Positions 845-11,444 of a stretch of DNA of 11,444 nt are shown one piece after another. The first letter of the stretch is position 1; each line of letters starts with the position of its first letter. The notes beneath the pieces are model-generated. The model was not told the DNA's origin, did not search any database, and was given only the letters and a program-made list of their open reading frames with translations. Where the stretch lies: IMG/VR virus record IMGVR_UViG_2693429635_000028, one strand, 5' to 3'. The position numbers and the translations under genes are program-made. This DNA comes from a virus. Lineage: Duplodnaviria; Heunggongvirae; Uroviricota; Caudoviricetes.

Positions 845-1003
845 ATGACACAGACAGAATCAGCGATTCTGGCGCACGCCCGGCGATGTGCGCCAGCGGA
901 GTCGTGCGGCTTCGTGGTAAGCACGCCGGAGGGGGAAAGATATTTCCCCTGCGTGAATATCTCCGGTGAGCCGGAGGCGTATTTCCGAGTCTGCCCTGGC
1001 TGA
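845..1003 (+). pseudogene. K: N-terminal fragment of tail tip assembly protein K (start of the JAB/MPN domain); frame ends prematurely at TGA 1001-1003
   Basis: ATG at 845, 5 nt after the L stop. Translation MTQTESAILAHARRCAPAESCGFVVSTPEGERYFPCVNISGEPEAYFRVCPG* contains the JAB/MPN N-terminal signature (AxxHAxxxxPxExCG). It stops after 52 codons and is out of frame (frame 2) with the downstream K-like ORF (frame 1). Confidence 0.5.
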
Positions 1004-1026
1004 GTGAGGCCGACCGGCGGCTGCAG

Positions 1027-1515
1027 GTGCAGAGTGATTTGCCGTGGTGGCTGGTCTGCCGGGGGACGATTCATAAGTTCCGCTGTGTGCCGCATCTCAC
1101 CGGGCGGCGCTTTGAGCACGGTGTGACGGACTGTTACACACTGTTCCGGGATGCTTATCATCTGGCGGGGATTGAGATGCCGGACTTTCATCGTGAGGAT
1201 GACTGGTGGCGTAACGGCCAGAATCTCTATCTGGATAATCTGGAGGCGACGGGGCTGTATCAGGTGCCGTTGTCAGCGGCACAGCCGGGCGATGTGCTGC
1301 TGTGCTGTTTTGGTTCATCGGTGCCGAATCACGCCGCAATTTACTGCGGCGACGGCGAGCTGCTGCACCATATTCCTGAACAACTGAGCAAACGAGAGAG
1401 GTACACCGACAAATGGCAGCGACGCACACACTCCCTCTGGCGTCACCGGGCATGGCGCGCATCTGCCTTTACGGGGATTTACAACGATTTGGCCGCCGCA
1501 TCGACCTTCGTGTGA
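1027..1515 (+). CDS. K: Tail tip assembly protein K, C-terminal NlpC/P60 (C40 peptidase-like) portion; no ATG start, the first conventional start is GTG at 1027
   Basis: 162-aa ORF (frame 1, open from 970 after TGA 967-969). Contains the SEAD remnant of the JAB motif just upstream (1003-1014) and an NlpC/P60-like Cys/His pair (DCYTLFRDAYHLAG ... HHIPEQ). Overlaps the start of I by 103 nt, as K does in lambda. Confidence 0.75.
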   Translation: MQSDLPWWLVCRGTIHKFRCVPHLTGRRFEHGVTDCYTLFRDAYHLAGIEMPDFHREDDWWRNGQNLYLDNLEATGLYQVPLSAAQPGDVLLCCFGSSVPNHAAIYCGDGELLHHIPEQLSKRERYTDKWQRRTHSLWRHRAWRASAFTGIYNDLAAASTFV

Positions 1516-6365: not shown

Positions 6366-6376
6366 GTGGGGTGAAT

Positions 6377-9300
6377 ATGGCAGTAAAGATTTCAGGTGTA
6401 CTGAAAGACGGCACAGGAAAACCGGTACAGAACTGCACAATCCAGCTGAAAGCAAAACGTAACAGCACCACGGTGGTGGTGAACACGCTGGCCTCAGAAA
6501 ATCCGGATGAAGCCGGGCGTTACAGCATGGACGTTGAGTACGGGCAGTACAGCGTTATTCTGTTGGTGGAGGGATTCCCGCCGTCACATGCCGGGACCAT
6601 CACCGTGTATGAAGATTCCCGACCCGGTACGCTGAATGATTTTCTCGGTGCCATGACGGAGGATGATGCCCGTCCTGAGGCACTGCGCCGTTTTGAACTG
6701 ATGGTGGAAGAGGTGGCGCGTAACGCGTCCGCGGTGGCACAGAACACGGCAGCCGTGAAGAAGTCAGCCAGCGATGCCAGCACATCAGCCCGTGAGGCGG
6801 CAACCCATGCGACTGATGCTGCAGGCTCAGCACGCGCAGCCAGCACGTCAGCCGGACAGGCCGCGTCGTCGGCTCAGTCAGCATCTTCCAGCGCAGGAAC
6901 GGCATCAACAAAGGCCAGTGAAGCATCGAAAAGTGCTGCTGCTGCAGAGTCCTCAAAAAGCGCGGCAGCTACCAGTGCCGCTGCGGCGAAAACGTCAGAA
7001 ACGAATGCGGCAGCGTCACAACAATCAGCAGCCACTTCTGCATCCGCCGCGACCACGAAGGCGTCAGAAGCAGCCACCTCAGCCCGGGATGCGGCGGCCT
7101 CAAAAGAGGCAGCGAAATCATCAGAAACGAACGCATCATCAAGCGCCAGTAGTGCCGCTTCCTCGGCAACGGCGGCAGCAAATTCTGCGAAGGCGGCCAA
7201 AACGTCTGAGACAAACGCCAGGTCTTCTGAAACGGCAGCGGGACAGAGCGCCTCGGCTGCGGCAGGCTCAAAAACAGCGGCTGCGTCGTCTGCCAGTGCC
7301 GCGTCAACAAGTGCCGGGCAGGCCTCAGCCAGTGCCACCGCCGCCGGAAAATCGGCAGAAAGTGCCGCATCGTCTGCTTCAACAGCCACAACGAAGGCTG
7401 GCGAAGCCACTGAACAGGCCAGCGCAGCAGCGAGGTCTGCTTCCGCAGCGAAGACATCCGAGACGAACGCGAAAGCGTCGGAAACCAGCGCAGAATCCTC
7501 AAAAACGGCTGCCGCATCGTCCGCCAGTTCGGCGGCGTCATCGGCATCATCGGCGTCTGCTTCAAAAGATGAGGCGACCAGACAAGCGTCCGCAGCGAAG
7601 GGCAGCGCCACGACAGCATCCACGAAGGCGACAGAGGCAGCTGGCAGTGCGACGGCGGCAGCACAGAGCAAAAGTACGGCGGAATCCGCGGTAACGCGCG
7701 CCGAGACAGCGGCAAAACGGGCAGAGGATATTGCATCCGCCGTGGCGCTTGAGGATGCAAGTACGACGAAAAAGGGGATAGTACAGCTCAGCAGTGCGAC
7801 CAACAGTACGTCTGAAACGCTGGCGGCAACGCCAAAGGCAGTAAAATCAGCCTATGACAATGCAGAGAAACGTCTGCAGAAAGACCAGAACGGCGCTGAT
7901 ATACCCGATAAGGGACGCTTCCTGAACAACATTAACGCGGTCAGTAAAACAGACTTTGCTGATAAGCGTGGTATGCGTTATGTGCGGGTTAACGCTCCTG
8001 CAGGTGCAATATCTGGAAAATATTACCCTGTTGTTGTTATGCGTTCTGCTGGCTCAGTAAGCGAACTGGCATCAAGGGTCATTATCACCACGGCAACGCG
8101 AACCGCAGGCGATCCGATGAATAACTGCGAGTTTAACGGATTTGTTATGCCTGGTGGCTGGACTGACAGGGGGCGTTATGCTTATGGAATGTTCTGGCAA
8201 TATCAAAACAATGAACGAGCCATCCACTCAATAATGATGAGTAATAAGGGCGATGATTTGCGCTCTGTGTTCTATGTTGATGGCGCTGCTTTCCCTGTTT
8301 TTGCGTTTATCGAAGATGGCCTGTCAATATCCGCACCTGGTGCTGATCTCGTTGTTAATGATACGACCTATAAGTTTGGGGCAACAAATCCGGCGACTGA
8401 ATGTATCGCGGCGGACGTTATCCTTGATTTTAAGAGTGGGCGTGGTTTTTATGAGTCTCATTCGTTAATCGTTAACGATAACTTGTCGTGCAAAAAACTT
8501 TTTGCCACAGACGAAATTGTAGCGCGTGGTGGTAATCAGATTCGAATGATAGGTGGGGAGTATGGGGCATTATGGCGTAATGATGGCGCTAAAACTTACC
8601 TGCTGCTTACCAATCAAGGTGATGTTTATGGTGGCTGGAATACATTAAGACCGTTTGCTATTGATAACGCAACCGGCGAACTGGTTATTGGAACCAAACT
8701 GTCCGCAAGTCTGAACGGTAATGCATTAACAGCAACAAAGCTGCAAACGCCAAGACGGGTTTCTGGTGTTGAGTTTGATGGTTCCAAAGATATTACTTTA
8801 ACCGCCGCGCATGTGGCTGCTTTTGCCAGAAGGGCAACGGATACATATGCCGATGCGGATGGTGGCGTTCCCTGGAATGCCGAATCAGGCGCTTACAATG
8901 TCACCCGCTCTGGCGACAGCTATATTCTGGTTAACTTCTATACCGGAGTCGGAAGTTGCCGGACCCTGCAGATGAAGGCGCATTACAGAAATGGTGGTCT
9001 GTTCTACCGTTCTTCAAGAGATGGCTATGGTTTTGAGGAAGACTGGGCAGAAGTTTATACCTCGAAAAATCTTCCACCAGAAAGCTACCCAGTCGGCGCA
9101 CCAATCCCGTGGCCATCAGATACCGTTCCGTCTGGTTATGCCCTGATGCAGGGGCAGACTTTTGACAAATCTGCCTACCCGAAACTTGCTGCCGCTTATC
9201 CGTCAGGCGTGATCCCTGATTTGCGTGGCTGGACGATTAAGGGCAAGCCCGCCAGTGGTCGTGCCGTATTGTCTCAGGAACAGGATGGCATTAAATCGCA

Positions 9301-9775
9301 TACCCACAGCGCCAGCGCATCCAGTACGGATTTGGGGACGAAAACCACATCGTCGTTTGATTACGGCACTAAATCCACGAATAACACTGGTGCGCATACC
9401 CATAGTTTAAGTGGCAGCACGAATGCAGCTGGTAATCACAGCCATAGAGATGGCCGTCGATTTAACCCCAGTGTTTTTAAAGATACTTATCAATATGGTT
9501 ATACAAGCTCAGGTCAAAATACCTGGGGTGTACAAGGCTCAGTAGGTATGTCTACGGGGTGGTTAGCGAATACCAGTACAGATGGTAATCATAGCCATTC
9601 ACTGTCCGGCACAGCAGCATCTGCAGGTGCACACGCGCATACTGTCGGTATTGGTGCTCATACGCACTCCGTTGCGATTGGTTCACATGGACACACCATC
9701 ACCGTTAACGCTGCTGGTAACGCGGAAAACACCGTCAAAAACATCGCATTTAACTATATTGTGAGGCTTGCATAA
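6377..9775 (+). CDS. stf: Side tail fibre protein Stf, long intact form (~1132 aa from the ATG at 6377; the ORF track extends to the GTG at 6371)
   Basis: N-terminus [26 protein letters not shown]... matches lambda Stf (orf-401) as I recall it. Long Ala/Ser-rich repeat region. C-terminus with repeated HxH motifs and ...[26 protein letters not shown], as at the lambda Stf / T4 gp37-type fibre tip. Stop TAA overlaps the tfa ATG (ATAATG). Confidence 0.9.
6730..7730 (+). repeat. Low-complexity Ala/Ser/Thr-rich coding repeat inside stf, with a recurring A-A-K-T/S-S-E-T-N-A motif (4 copies)
   Basis: Motif copies at about 6988-7014, 7116-7139, 7200-7223 and 7452-7475 (AAKTSETNA / AAKSSETNA). The composition generates long spurious ORFs in other frames and on the opposite strand. 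Confidence 0.8.
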
Positions 9776-10359
9776 TGGCATTCAGAATGAGTGAACAAGC
9801 ACGGACCATAAAAATTTATAATCTGCTGGCCGGAACTAATGAATTTATTGGTGAAGGTGATGCATATATTCCGCCTCATACAGGTCTGCCAGCAAACAGT
9901 ACCGATATTGCACCACCAGATATTCCTGCTGGCTTTGTGGCTGTTTTCAACAGTGATGAGGCATCGTGGCATCTCGTTGAAGACCATCGGGGTAAAACGG
10001 TTTATGACGTAGCGTCAGGGGACGAGTTATTTATTTCTGAACTCGGTCCGTTACCGGAAAATGTTACCTGGTTATCGCCGGAAGGGGAGTTTCAGAAGTG
10101 GAACGGCACAGCCTGGGTGAAAGATGCAGAAGCAGAAAAACTGTTCCGGATCCGAGAGGCGGAAGAAATAAAAAACAGCCTGATGCAGGTAGCCAGTGAG
10201 CATATTGCGCCACTTCAGGATGCTGTAGATCTGGAAATCGCAACGGAGGAAGAAACCTCATTGCTGGAAGCCTGGAAAAAGTATCGGGTGTTGCTGAACC
10301 GTGTTGATACATCAACTGCACCTGATATTGAGTGGCCTACGAACCCTGTCAGGGAGTAA
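9775..10359 (+). CDS. tfa: Tail fibre assembly protein Tfa (chaperone for Stf)
   Basis: 194-aa ORF, the same length as lambda Tfa and closely matching it as recalled ([78 protein letters not shown]...). Start is translationally coupled to the stf stop. Confidence 0.95.
10195..10314 (+). repeat. Direct repeat copy 1 (tfa 3' coding segment), about 89% identical to 11244-11363
   Basis: Manual alignment: 13 mismatches over 120 nt between 10195-10314 and 11244-11363, same orientation. Confidence 0.85.
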
Positions 10360-10373
10360 TCATTGGGATTATG

Positions 10374-10406
10374 CCGCAGCACGTCTTAAGCAAGAACGTG
10401 CTGCGG
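10374..10406. promoter_or_regulatory. Perfect 11-bp inverted repeat (CCGCAGCACGT ... ACGTGCTGCGG, 11-nt loop) between the convergent tfa and methyltransferase genes; possible bidirectional terminator or RNA-processing hairpin
   Basis: Read directly: ccgcagcacgt-cttaagcaaga-acgtgctgcgg. There is no adjacent U-tract on either strand (the T6 run at 10417-10422 is 10 nt away), so it is not a canonical intrinsic terminator. Confidence 0.4.
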
Positions 10407-10413
10407 TTGGATG

Positions 10414-11082
10414 CTATTTTTTCCCTGAAGCGGAAAACATTACTACAGTACCTTGAACCTTGGTTTTAACATTCTCGAAATGCTCTGAGAGTATATGTGT
10501 TAAGCCTTCTTCGGAATCTTTTGTGTTTGAAAAGATGCCTTTCTGATTGTAAATGCGCATCAGTTTTTGACCGAAGCTATTGTGCACAACTCCATCGCCA
10601 AGAATTGTGGCTCCGTATAGAGTTCCATCGTCAGTTAAGGCCTGCGCCGCATTGCGTATTACACAGCTTTTTGTAGATATATTTCCAGGCAGGCAGTGAA
10701 GAAGGTAAAACATGGAAATGGAATCAAATTGACCATGTAACGCCGCGGGATAAGGTTCAAAAACATCATGGCTAATTTTATGTTTAATTTTTGATTCCCC
10801 AGCCCTTGTAGATGCCGCGTTCAGGCTAGCTTCGTTCAAATCCATTAAAGATATCAGACTACTCTCAGGTACGTGAGTAAGGTAAAACCCAGTTCCAACA
10901 CCAATATCCAGATGGTTGTTACCTAAATGTTCCAGAAAGTGTGGAAGAAGGTGTTCCTTTGTAGGACATCCCCATGCAAGCCGATTTGATACTCCCAAAA
11001 CCCACCAGTCATAAAGCTTTAGGGTAAGTGGTGTGTAAATTTTAGCCCCATCATCTGTGTTTTTTTTCATTAATTTCACCAT
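10414..11082 (-). CDS. Putative class I SAM-dependent methyltransferase encoded by a low-GC moron (222 aa; the true start may be the internal ATG at 11070, which has a GGTGA SD)
   Basis: Motif I-like HLDIGVGTGFY followed about 20 aa later by an acidic residue (LISLMDLNEAS), consistent with a Rossmann-fold SAM-binding site. Markedly more AT-rich than the flanking tail genes. Opposite strand to the tail operon. By recollection only (unverified), similar cassettes such as ybcY in E. coli DLP12 sit between tfa copies. Confidence 0.6.
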   Translation of the reverse strand: MVKLMKKNTDDGAKIYTPLTLKLYDWWVLGVSNRLAWGCPTKEHLLPHFLEHLGNNHLDIGVGTGFYLTHVPESSLISLMDLNEASLNAASTRAGESKIKHKISHDVFEPYPAALHGQFDSISMFYLLHCLPGNISTKSCVIRNAAQALTDDGTLYGATILGDGVVHNSFGQKLMRIYNQKGIFSNTKDSEEGLTHILSEHFENVKTKVQGTVVMFSASGKK

Positions 11083-11138
11083 GTTATAGTTTTATTTGTG
11101 AATTAAATCAATTATGGCGATGAATTACAAGGGGTTAA

Positions 11139-11444
11139 ATGCTGCCGCAGCATAGCGATATTGAAATAGCCTGGTATGCTTCGATACAACAGGAGCCGAA
11201 TGGCTGGAAGACCGTCACCACACAGTTCTACATCCAGGAATTCAGTGAGTATATTGCGCCACTGCAGGATGCTGTAGATCTGGAAATCGCAACGGAGGAA
11301 GAAAGATCGTTGCTGGAGGCATGGAATAAATATCGGGTATTGTTGAATCGAGTTGATACATCAGTAGCTCTGGGTATGAAGCTGTTTGTAACTCATGTTA
11401 CAGTAACAGTCATTACTATCTCGAAGGTGCAAAATGTATATTGA
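11139..11444 (+). CDS. Truncated/remnant tail fibre assembly (Tfa-like) protein, 101 aa, probably a relic of a second tfa copy
   Basis: The internal segment [39 protein letters not shown] is near-identical to Tfa residues encoded at 10195-10314. N- and C-terminal flanks are unrelated to Tfa. SD-like AAGGGG upstream of the ATG at 11139. The stop coincides with the window end. Confidence 0.55.
11244..11363 (+). repeat. Direct repeat copy 2 (inside the tfa-like remnant), about 89% identical to 10195-10314
   Basis: Same alignment as copy 1. Similarity ends abruptly after ...GTTGATACATCA in both copies. Confidence 0.85.

What the first reader, a model, noticed from the sequence alone, without database searches (positions are those of the whole stretch)
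10414..11138. Orphan low-GC methyltransferase-like moron on the opposite strand, directly downstream of the tail fibre genes
A 222-aa ORF with a glycine-rich SAM-binding motif I (LDIGVGTGFY) and a downstream acidic residue (DLNEAS) is encoded antisense to the tail operon, in a stretch much more AT-rich than its surroundings. That combination is the hallmark of a horizontally acquired accessory gene. No partner gene (restriction endonuclease, specificity subunit, toxin) is present in the window, so it is not an obvious restriction-modification or known defence module. Its substrate is unknown; it could act on DNA, RNA, protein or a small molecule. Genes parked at this prophage position are frequently host-interaction, superinfection-exclusion or anti-defence functions, which makes this the best candidate in the window for an uncharacterised activity. 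The upstream (minus-strand) region 11083-11138 is AT-rich with a possible sigma70-like promoter (TTGTAA about 11125-11130, 17-nt spacer, TTTAAT about 11102-11107 in + coordinates, read on the minus strand), suggesting independent expression in the lysogen.
Basis: partly seen in the sequence, partly recalled or inferred. Interest (0 to 1): 0.65.

Follow-up and report, generated by a model that had tools for sequence, protein, structure and literature searches.

The report
Prophage cargo methyltransferase gene ybcY
This is an intact copy of ybcY, a methyltransferase gene of unknown substrate that lambda-like E. coli prophages carry as self-expressed cargo beside their tail-fibre genes; about 70% of E. 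coli genomes have it and it is already catalogued, so it is a known gene of unknown function, not a new system.

Summary
A 222-aa ORF lies at 10414-11082 (-), is AT-rich (GC 0.41 against 0.54 for the window), converges on the tail-fibre operon and has class I SAM-methyltransferase motifs. It is ybcY (b0562) of DLP12-type lambdoid prophages, identical to WP_000239881.1 and a full-length match to phrog_2132 (unknown function). It is present in 3,832 of 5,426 complete E. coli genomes and in 14 deposited Escherichia phage records. K-12 carries a 2-bp frameshifted pseudogene.

The true start is Met5 (ATG 11070-11068, 218 aa). A 64-nt promoter/5'UTR block is conserved in alleles whose synonymous sites are saturated.

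Fold searches hit mainly small-molecule and lipid methyltransferases. There are no DNA-methyltransferase motifs, no defence-system match and no conserved partner gene. dN/dS is 0.11-0.20.

The cassette sits where lambda has ea47. It is flanked by two copies of a conserved tfa 3' segment, which probably lets it move between tail modules.

The substrate remains unknown. An invariant His/Cys/Asp set partly overlays the BelI/CysG metal site. This is an ordinary moron and already known.

The parts
10414..11070 (-). ybcY coding sequence from the conserved start codon (218 aa plus a TAG stop at 10416-10414). It encodes a class I SAM-dependent methyltransferase.
   Evidence: phrog_2132 aligns to residues 5-222 over all 218 profile positions. 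The K-12 annotation also starts at this position.
11071..11082 (-). A non-conserved in-frame extension (Met1-Leu4 of the mechanical ORF). It is probably 5'UTR and contains a Shine-Dalgarno-like GGTGA at 11080-11076, 5 nt before the ATG.
   Evidence: The upstream ATG is absent from other alleles, the Salmonella allele has an in-frame TAG there, and GGTGA is kept in 3 of 5 alleles (4 of 5 keep a GxTGA form).
11083..11131 (-). Conserved promoter block. The -35 is TTGTAA (11130-11125), followed by a 17-nt spacer, an extended -10 'TG' (11110-11109) and the -10 TTTAAT (11107-11102). An overlapping alternative pair proposed by Shimada et al. is TTGATT (11111-11106), 17 nt, then TATAAC (11088-11083).
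   Evidence: Phylogenetic footprint: the block from 11131 to 11068 is 73-91% identical in alleles with dS of 1.0-1.5, while the sequence upstream of it falls to 31-56%. Published genomic SELEX finds an RpoD-holoenzyme site and an H-NS site in the K-12 ybcY/tfaX spacer (PMC3946193). That spacer differs from the window at one base.
10374..10406 (.). Perfect 11-bp stem with an 11-nt loop between the convergent tfa and ybcY genes. It is shared with phage lambda and marks the end of the tail module and the left edge of the cassette.
   Evidence: -38.5 kcal/mol with flanks, z = -6.7. Homology to lambda runs to window position 10408.
9775..10359 (+). tfa, the tail-fibre assembly gene (context). Its 3' segment 10183-10314 is the left copy of the flanking direct repeat.
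   Evidence: Pfam Caudo_TAP, E = 1.6e-44. Repeat D1.
11139..11444 (+). tfaX-like stub, divergent from ybcY. It has a unique N-terminus of about 30 aa fused to a duplicated tfa C-terminal segment. The repeat copy at 11232-11363 is 87% identical to 10183-10314.
   Evidence: (phrog_2341). The 5' part of the stub travels with the gene in Citrobacter freundii.

Best explanation
The ORF is an intact ybcY. It is a cytoplasmic class I SAM-dependent methyltransferase of the small-molecule/lipid type, about 24 kDa, carried as lysogenic-conversion cargo (a 'moron') by DLP12/lambda-like prophages.

Position. It occupies the slot that ea47 holds in lambda: the first gene of the variable region between the tail-fibre module and attP. 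It is on the same strand as int, ompT and an alpha/beta hydrolase (or appY in K-12). After integration this block is cut off from the early phage promoters.

Expression. The gene is transcribed from its own conserved sigma70 promoter (extended -10), in AT-rich DNA that also binds H-NS. Transcription runs towards the lambda-type hairpin that closes the tail operon.

Activity. The enzyme binds SAM through the canonical motifs (D59-x-G-x-G-T-G, D81, D106). It most probably methylates a low-molecular-weight metabolite or a lipid-like compound. The substrate would sit in a pocket built from the invariant N-terminal lid (Y24, D25, W27, N33, W37, C39) and the invariant H57, H129, C130, H167, Y178, N179, N186 and D189, possibly with a bound metal. 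This would benefit the lysogen, not modify DNA.

Mobility. Two direct copies of a conserved tfa 3' segment flank the cassette. They plausibly let it be gained, lost or swapped between different tail-fibre modules by homologous recombination.

Shown here: the gene's identity, fold class, intactness, purifying selection, promoter conservation, position in the phage genome and lack of a partner gene.

Inferred: expression in lysogens, the substrate class, metal dependence, benefit to the host and the recombination route.
For: Identity:
- 100% DNA identity to loci annotated as a class I SAM-dependent methyltransferase.
- K-12 gene order is tfaD-ybcY-tfaX-appY-ompT.
- Full-length match to phrog_2132.

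Fold and class:
- Pfam Methyltransf_12/23/25/11 score above their cut-offs.
- The AlphaFold model has pLDDT 88.
- There is no DPPY, PCQ or TCS motif and no transmembrane segment; pI is 6.9.

Selection:
- dN/dS is 0.20, 0.11 and 0.16 against the alleles with 90%, 79% and 68% protein identity.
- The alignment is gapless in 35 of 39 sampled E. coli genomes.

Promoter:
- The 64-nt block is conserved.
- RpoD-holoenzyme and H-NS SELEX sites lie in this spacer.

Cargo context:
- In ev243 and PhiR26_1 the order is tail genes | ybcY | tfa stub | hydrolase | ompT | int.
- Close alleles in Citrobacter, Salmonella and Shigella lie beside dinI, sodC, NleG/SopA, PerC, ipaH and tail-gene fragments.
- Lambda and other phages share the tfa gene (92-96% identity) but lack the cassette, and lambda homology stops at 10408.

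Mobility:
- 132-nt direct repeats flank the cassette.
- In ev243-type phages, homology to the window starts inside that repeat, and a different tail module lies upstream.
- There are up to four copies per genome.

Active site:
- The His/Cys/Asp set is invariant in 73 sequences.
- H129 and C130 align with the BelI/CysG metal ligands H122 and H123.
Against: - I found no direct evidence of transcription or protein in a lysogen. H-NS binding suggests the promoter is often silenced.
- K-12 carries a pseudogene, and a ybcY deletion made no difference in the one assay reported.
- Within E. coli the gene is at least 95% identical, so selection can only be read from other genera.
- tRNA-modifying enzymes (CmoA, METTL6) are also on that list.
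- The 'LHH' position after beta4 is common in methyltransferases that bind no metal. The third BelI ligand (D191) could not be aligned.
- The hairpin has no U-run on the ybcY strand, so how the transcript terminates is unclear.
Confidence: 0.6

Rival explanations
1. Non-functional passenger. ybcY no longer does anything useful and persists only because it is linked to the tail-fibre module and to ompT, and because this prophage lineage spread recently.
For: K-12 carries a frameshifted pseudogene. The K-12-type 2-bp deletion is in 4 of 39 sampled genomes. The knockout had no effect in the Hha toxicity assay. E. coli copies are at least 95% identical, mostly at least 99%, so there has been little time for decay. 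The spacer binds H-NS.
Against: dN/dS is 0.11-0.20 across cargo-clade alleles at 68-90% protein identity, with no internal stops. The promoter/5'UTR is conserved although synonymous sites are saturated. The gene stays intact in this window although tail gene K has a 73-bp frameshifting deletion. The family is conserved in at least 513 species-representative genomes with an invariant residue set.
Confidence: 0.15
2. A function that benefits the phage. The enzyme would methylate an envelope or receptor precursor (for example a sugar or lipid intermediate) to block superinfection, or it would act in tail-fibre biology, which would explain its fixed position beside stf/tfa.
For: The position next to attP is where temperate phages often keep O-antigen-modifying and exclusion genes (general knowledge, not tested here). 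The gene is tightly linked to tfa sequences on both sides. A sugar O-methyltransferase (RebM) and a phospholipid N-methyltransferase (PmtA) are among the structural neighbours.
Against: No lambdoid tail gene, ompT, hydrolase or integrase was detected within about 6-8 kb in 80 of the 94 relatives' loci searched, and the loci inspected gene by gene lie among chromosomal genes. No conserved glycosyltransferase, flippase or other envelope partner was found. The protein has no membrane segment. Phages with different tail-fibre modules carry the identical allele, so it is not matched to a fibre type.
Confidence: 0.12
3. Orphan nucleic-acid methyltransferase. It would modify DNA (anti-restriction or epigenetic) or rRNA/tRNA.
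Confidence: 0.05

Closest known systems
YbcY (b0562) of E. coli cryptic prophage DLP12 / WP_000239881.1 / phrog_2132
   Same: It is the same gene. The flanks are identical (tfaD-ybcY-tfaX), the DNA is over 99% identical, and the match to the PHROG profile is full length.
   Different: The K-12 reference copy is a pseudogene: a 2-bp deletion in the A-run removes the start codon. The window copy is intact. No function has been assigned to the family.
STM1638 of Salmonella Typhimurium and other chromosomal homologues in Enterobacter, Yersinia, Erwinia, Proteus, Pseudomonas and Xanthomonadales
   Same: Same family: 49-65% identity, the same length (216-229 aa) and the same invariant residues. All are single genes without a conserved partner.
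   Different: They are not phage-borne, and their GC content matches their genomes (for example Erwinia 0.56 against 0.41 here). They are also uncharacterised. The equation of P0098 with STM1638 rests on synteny only (methyltransferase | rydC | cybB).
BelI/CysG, Ca2+-dependent carboxyl O-methyltransferases of belactosin and cystargolide biosynthesis (PDB 9FCE, 9FCD; PMC11408123)
   Different: Sequence identity is only 15-18% in the fold searches (28% over the 97 columns aligned by hhalign). The second ligand is Cys, not His. The alignment stops before D191, R22 and R187, the residues that bind the substrate carboxylates. There is no biosynthetic gene cluster around ybcY.
Juvenile-hormone acid O-methyltransferase (7EBS, 7EC0) and UbiG (4KDR)
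   Same: They are the best sequence-level matches among solved structures (profile E = 2e-5 and 4.5e-4), over the Rossmann core.
   Different: The matches cover only the SAM-binding core (about residues 41-163). The family-specific N-terminal lid and C-terminal insert have no counterpart.
Lambdoid morons and b-region cargo (lom, bor, and ea47 of lambda; ompT of DLP12)
   Same: The layout is the same: an AT-rich, independently promoted gene that is not needed for lytic growth, lying between the late/tail genes and attP. Some phages with near-identical tfa genes have it and others do not.
   Different: It is not a simple insertion between two genes that are adjacent elsewhere. It sits at the junction with the variable region and is bracketed by duplicated tfa 3' segments. 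The terminator-like hairpin belongs to the lambda-type tail module, not to the cassette.

Membership tests
Class I (Rossmann-fold) SAM-dependent methyltransferases | Motif I (D/E-x-G-x-G-x-G) after beta1. | tested here: met
   D59-I-G61-V-G63-T64-G65 is invariant in 73 sequences.
Class I (Rossmann-fold) SAM-dependent methyltransferases | An acidic residue at the end of beta2 (binds the ribose) and an acidic residue after beta3 (binds the adenine). | tested here: met
   D81 is invariant and D106 is conserved in 97% of sequences. They align with BelI D77 and D102, which the BelI/CysG paper shows binding the ribose and adenine.
Class I (Rossmann-fold) SAM-dependent methyltransferases | A seven-stranded alpha/beta fold. 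| tested here: met
Pfam Methyltransf_12 / _23 / _25 / _11 | Score at or above the curated gathering cut-off. | tested here: met
   Scores against cut-offs: 37.6 vs 30, 28.8 vs 27, 27.7 vs 27, and 24.6 vs 21.2 bits.
YbcY family (phrog_2132) | Full-length, high-scoring match to the family profile. | tested here: met
   E = 7.9e-157, with residues 5-222 aligned to profile positions 1-218 of 218.
DNA methyltransferases (N6A/N4C and C5) | Catalytic motif IV, either (D/N/S)PP(Y/F/W) or the PCQ/ENV pair, together with a target-recognition domain. | tested here: not met
   No DPPY-type or PCQ motif is present. The single 'ENV' at residue 199 lies in the C-terminal strand region. The 218 aa leave no room for a target-recognition domain. 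No DNA-methylase Pfam family matches.
Known anti-phage defence systems (PADLOC) | A significant match to a system component, together with partner genes. | tested here: not met
   The only hit is mad2 at E = 0.0033 (14.3 bits), over the generic methyltransferase core. There are no partner genes in the window or in related loci.
Phospholipid N-methyltransferase PmtA (NF045882) | NCBIfam equivalog score at or above the cut-off. | tested here: not met
   15.6 bits against a cut-off of 390. The structural similarity is only TM about 0.6.
UbiE/COQ5 C-methyltransferases (the name IMG gives some relatives) | A match to the UbiE/COQ5 family models. | tested here: not met
BelI/CysG-type metal-dependent O-methyltransferases | A His-His-Asp metal-binding motif (H122, H123, D191), with R22 and R187 binding the substrate carboxylates. 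| tested here: inconclusive
   H129 aligns with H122, and C130 aligns with H123 (Cys in place of His). The alignment ends at residue 157, so D191, R187 and R22 cannot be placed. D189 and H167 are invariant, but whether they are equivalent is unproven.
Phage moron (sense of Hendrix and colleagues; general knowledge) | Its own promoter. | tested here: met
   The -35/17/-10 pair with an extended -10 is conserved. RpoD-holoenzyme SELEX finds a site in the K-12 spacer.
Phage moron (sense of Hendrix and colleagues; general knowledge) | Its own terminator. | tested here: inconclusive
   A strong hairpin lies 7 nt past the stop codon, but there is no U-run on the ybcY strand and the hairpin is shared with lambda's tail module.
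Phage moron (sense of Hendrix and colleagues; general knowledge) | Base composition unlike the neighbouring genes, and presence or absence among otherwise similar phages. | tested here: met
   GC is 0.41 against 0.47-0.58 for the tail genes. Lambda, HK629/630, ev099, 2H10 and mEp332 have a tfa gene 92-96% identical but no ybcY.

The most novel reading that the evidence does not exclude
YbcY would define a widespread, uncharacterised clade of metal-assisted small-molecule methyltransferases. Its site would be a His-Cys-(His)-Asp variant of the BelI/CysG His-His-Asp site, perhaps binding a transition metal. Lambdoid prophages would have captured it as a lysogenic-conversion enzyme. In that reading it methylates, and so neutralises or alters, a specific host- or competitor-derived metabolite or an envelope lipid, alongside the protease OmpT. 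The cassette would spread between tail-fibre modules by recombination at its flanking tfa 3' repeats.
Probability: 0.2. Interest if true: 0.5.

Novelty: already known. Interest (0 to 1): 0.25.

Why it matters
ybcY is one of the most widespread prophage cargo genes in E. coli. About 70% of complete genomes carry it, with up to four copies, and it also occurs in inducible phages. Nothing is known about what it methylates, partly because the K-12 reference copy is dead.

If it proves to be a lysogenic-conversion enzyme acting on a metabolite or lipid, that would add a chemical-modification function to a block that already holds the virulence-associated protease OmpT.

This analysis contributes a corrected start codon, a defined promoter, a list of candidate active-site residues and a closest characterised structural analogue. 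Together these make the question experimentally tractable. The finding itself is not surprising to a specialist.

Tried and rejected
1. A conserved methyltransferase-hydrolase gene pair. The alpha/beta hydrolase beside ybcY in the phages (Abhydrolase_1 plus a TAP-like domain) is unrelated to the COesterase beside the Erwinia homologue (BLASTP E = 0.84).

2. A conserved neighbour anywhere in the family. I clustered ORFs within 3.5 kb in 73 genome loci. Only short-chain dehydrogenases (13 loci) and LysR regulators (7 loci) recurred, at inconsistent positions.

3. Domain fusions among longer family members. The extensions carry no informative domain. The one RCC1 fusion looks eukaryotic or artefactual.

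4. Source names for distant relatives. They are only 'class I SAM-dependent methyltransferase' or the generic IMG label 'UbiE'.

5. Literature. ybcY, b0562 and STM1638 appear only in gene lists, a promoter table, a deletion and descriptions of flanking genes. There is no functional study.

6. The 10-nt direct repeat TGCCGCAGCA (10372 and 11143) as a target-site duplication. Repeats of this length occur by chance in the region (other 10-11-mers were found), and the left copy lies inside the lambda-derived hairpin.

7. The generic promoter/terminator scan. It found no more than chance and missed the conserved pair because of its rule for the -10 hexamer.

8. The afdb50 fold library was unavailable.

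9. The Rfam scan found nothing in the cassette itself.

Full report
OBSERVATION.

It converges on the tail-fibre assembly gene tfa (9775-10359). It diverges from a 101-aa tfa-like stub (11139-11444).

GC content is 0.408 for the ORF and 0.268 for the 56-nt upstream spacer. For comparison it is 0.474 for tfa, 0.532 for stf, 0.563 for J and 0.536 for the whole window.

Pfam Methyltransf_12, _23, _25 and _11 all pass their gathering thresholds. NCBIfam offers nothing specific; its best hit scores 17 bits against a cut-off of 180. The rest of the window is a lambda-like tail region: L, K, I, J, lom, stf and tfa.

WHAT IT IS.

The 901-bp segment around the ORF is 100% identical to loci in many E. 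coli chromosomes, where the gene is annotated 'class I SAM-dependent methyltransferase' (WP_000239881.1). In K-12 MG1655 the same locus reads tfaD - ybcY (b0562, pseudogene) - tfaX - appY - ompT, at the right end of cryptic prophage DLP12.

The K-12 pseudogene results from a 2-bp deletion in the run ATG-AAA-AAA-AAC. The deletion destroys the conserved start codon and shifts the frame. The window copy is intact.

The ORF occurs in 3,832 of 5,426 complete E. coli genomes, always at 95% identity or more, with up to four copies per genome. In an evenly spaced sample, 4 of 39 full-length hits carry the K-12-type deletion and the rest align without gaps.

Fourteen deposited Escherichia phage records carry it at 99% identity or more, among them ev243 (genus Nesevirus), 2G7b, PhiR26_1, PhiR29, Kati and Turner. 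No other phage in that collection has a relative. PHROGs holds it as phrog_2132, 'unknown function'.

START CODON AND PROMOTER.

All homologues and the PHROG profile begin at Met5 of the mechanical ORF. Alignment of the upstream DNA of five alleles (68-100% protein identity) shows three things:
- The window's first ATG is not conserved.
- A Salmonella allele has an in-frame TAG at that point.
- The conserved ATG (11070-11068) follows a GGTGA Shine-Dalgarno-like element, which three of the five alleles keep exactly and a fourth keeps as GATGA.

A 64-nt block from 11131 to 11068 is 73-91% identical between these alleles, although their synonymous divergence is 1.0-1.5. The 70 columns further upstream fall to 31-56% in the 68-79% alleles.

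Shimada et al. (PMC3946193) found an RpoD-holoenzyme binding site and an H-NS site in the K-12 ybcY/tfaX spacer by genomic SELEX. They proposed an overlapping pair, TTGATT-17-TATAAC. The K-12 spacer differs from the window at one base.

The generic scan alone would not have been evidence, since it found 2 sites against 2.7 expected. I therefore regard an independent sigma70 promoter, subject to H-NS, as well supported. Which hexamer pair is used is still open.

POSITION IN THE PHAGE AND MOBILITY.

In ev243 and PhiR26_1 the order is: tail genes | ybcY (opposite strand) | tfa stub | alpha/beta hydrolase | ompT | attP region | int. The genes ybcY, hydrolase, ompT and int all lie on one strand.

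Phage lambda and several relatives share the tfa gene at 92-96% identity but lack the cassette. Lambda homology runs through the hairpin (10374-10406; -38.5 kcal/mol, z = -6.7) and stops at 10408, six bases before the ybcY stop codon. So ybcY occupies the slot of lambda's ea47, and the hairpin belongs to the tail module.

The cassette is bracketed by a 132-nt direct repeat, 10183-10314 and 11232-11363 (87% identical). This is the conserved tfa 3' end and its copy inside tfaX. In ev243-type phages, homology to the window starts inside this repeat, while the tail-fibre genes upstream are different.

From this I infer that recombination at these tfa 3' segments moves, or deletes, the cassette between tail modules. 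That would explain the multiple copies per genome. This step is inferred, not shown.

THE FAMILY.

Relatives number 2,296 in the word-indexed search. In the exhaustive search they number 1,750 cluster representatives, 425 of them at E <= 1e-30. At least 513 species-representative genomes encode one. They span Enterobacterales, Pasteurellaceae, Pseudomonas, Xanthomonadales and Oxalobacteraceae.

Members are almost all 215-230 aa. They stand alone in unrelated chromosomal settings. No neighbour is conserved.

The Salmonella copy upstream of cybB matches the published description of STM1638, which is itself uncharacterised.

Only the closest alleles (68-90% identity) sit in prophage-derived cargo regions:
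- beside dinI and a tfaX stub in C. freundii;
- beside sodC, a gpL fragment and NleG/SopA in C. braakii;
- beside PerC in Salmonella;
- beside an IS-disrupted ipaH in Shigella.

These cargo-clade alleles are all AT-rich (GC 0.40-0.44). The Erwinia and Enterobacter copies match their genomes.

dN/dS against the 90%, 79% and 68% alleles is 0.20, 0.11 and 0.16.

WHAT KIND OF METHYLTRANSFERASE.

The AlphaFold model is confident (pLDDT 88, pTM 0.86). It has an N-terminal helical lid, a seven-stranded core and an insert between beta5 and beta6.

Sequence-level PDB matches are weak and cover the core only: JHAMT at E = 2e-5 and UbiG at E = 4.5e-4.

The protein has no DPPY, PCQ or TCS motif and no membrane segment, and its pI is 6.9. 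PADLOC gives only a noise-level hit.

Across 73 sequences down to 49% identity, the invariant residues include the SAM motifs. They also include a family-specific set: Y24, D25, W27, N33, W37, C39, T41, H57, H129, C130, K138, H167, Y178, N179, N186 and D189.

BelI and CysG are carboxyl O-methyltransferases that use a His122-His123-Asp191 Ca2+ site (PMC11408123). I translated their genes from the paper's supplement and ran a profile-profile comparison. The result was 94% probability, with these correspondences:
- D59, D81 and D106 align with D52, D77 and D102.
- H129 and C130 align with H122 and H123.

The alignment ends at residue 157, so the third ligand cannot be placed. A metal-assisted mechanism is therefore a lead, not a finding.

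MECHANISM AND RIVALS.

The best reading (confidence about 0.6) is a cytoplasmic small-molecule or lipid methyltransferase. It would be expressed from its own H-NS-modulated promoter in the lysogen, as part of the cargo block that also holds OmpT.

The rivals are:
- a decaying passenger (0.15), contradicted by purifying selection, the promoter footprint and the gene's persistence in a prophage whose K gene is broken;
- a phage-benefit role in receptor modification or fibre biology (0.12), contradicted by the non-phage homologues and by identical alleles sitting next to different fibre modules;
- a nucleic-acid methyltransferase (0.05), contradicted by the motifs, the size and the fold neighbours.

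NOVELTY AND VERDICT.

The gene, its family and its annotation as a putative SAM-dependent methyltransferase of DLP12 are already in the public databases. The literature I could search contains no functional study.

What this analysis adds is a corrected start codon, a conserved promoter, the cassette boundaries and flanking repeats, a candidate active-site residue set and the nearest characterised analogue. Interest: 0.25.

Noticed in passing
window 845-1515 (+): Tail gene K (C40/JAMM peptidase) carries a 73-bp deletion relative to strain E2865. The deletion removes the segment encoding '...VALVHSHPG...' and shifts the frame, splitting the gene into ORFs 845-1003 and 1027-1515. The E2865 copy is itself annotated as a pseudogene with an internal stop. 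The prophage in this window is therefore probably tail-defective, while ybcY is intact.
   Followed up: yes
window 10118-10316 (+): The Rfam family IS009 (RF02111, a predicted E. coli intergenic sRNA) matches at 227.8 bits, entirely inside the tfa coding region. It overlaps the conserved tfa 3' repeat. The Rfam family may simply model tfa coding sequence.
   Followed up: partly
window 10183-10314 and 11232-11363: A 132-nt direct repeat (87% identical) consists of the tfa 3' end and its copy inside the tfaX stub. It brackets the ybcY cassette and is a plausible substrate for gain, loss or exchange of the cassette by recombination.
   Followed up: partly
window 10374-10406: A perfect 11-bp inverted repeat with an 11-nt loop lies between the convergent tfa and ybcY genes (-38.5 kcal/mol with flanks, z = -6.7). 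It is conserved in phage lambda downstream of tfa. The terminator scan missed it because the loop is longer than 8 nt.
   Followed up: partly
window 10301-10456 (+); L001 12033-12170: RefSeq annotates a 45-aa 'hypothetical protein' (WP_001309429.1) that spans the tfa stop codon, the hairpin and the 3' end of ybcY on the opposite strand. It is probably a spurious gene call.
   Followed up: no
L019 and L021 (E. coli ECMA0423, Shigella flexneri), 6985-9966: In these genomes ybcY is followed by an ipaH-type type III effector gene (LRR_TTSS plus NEL E3-ligase domains) interrupted by an IS transposase. This is another example of ybcY sitting in a prophage cargo region alongside virulence effectors.
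   Followed up: partly
L020 and L029 (contigs binned as Bacillus sp. and Planococcaceae MAGs): 100%-identical ybcY-hydrolase-ompT or ybcY-ompT segments appear on short contigs assigned to Firmicutes metagenome bins. This is almost certainly mis-binned E. coli DNA, not real transfer.
   Followed up: no
window 6371-9775 (+): The side tail fibre protein has a long, low-complexity Ala/Ser/Thr-rich central region (about residues 130-470). This produces long spurious ORFs in several other frames and on the opposite strand, for example 6774-7694 (+) and 6874-7803 (-).
   Followed up: no
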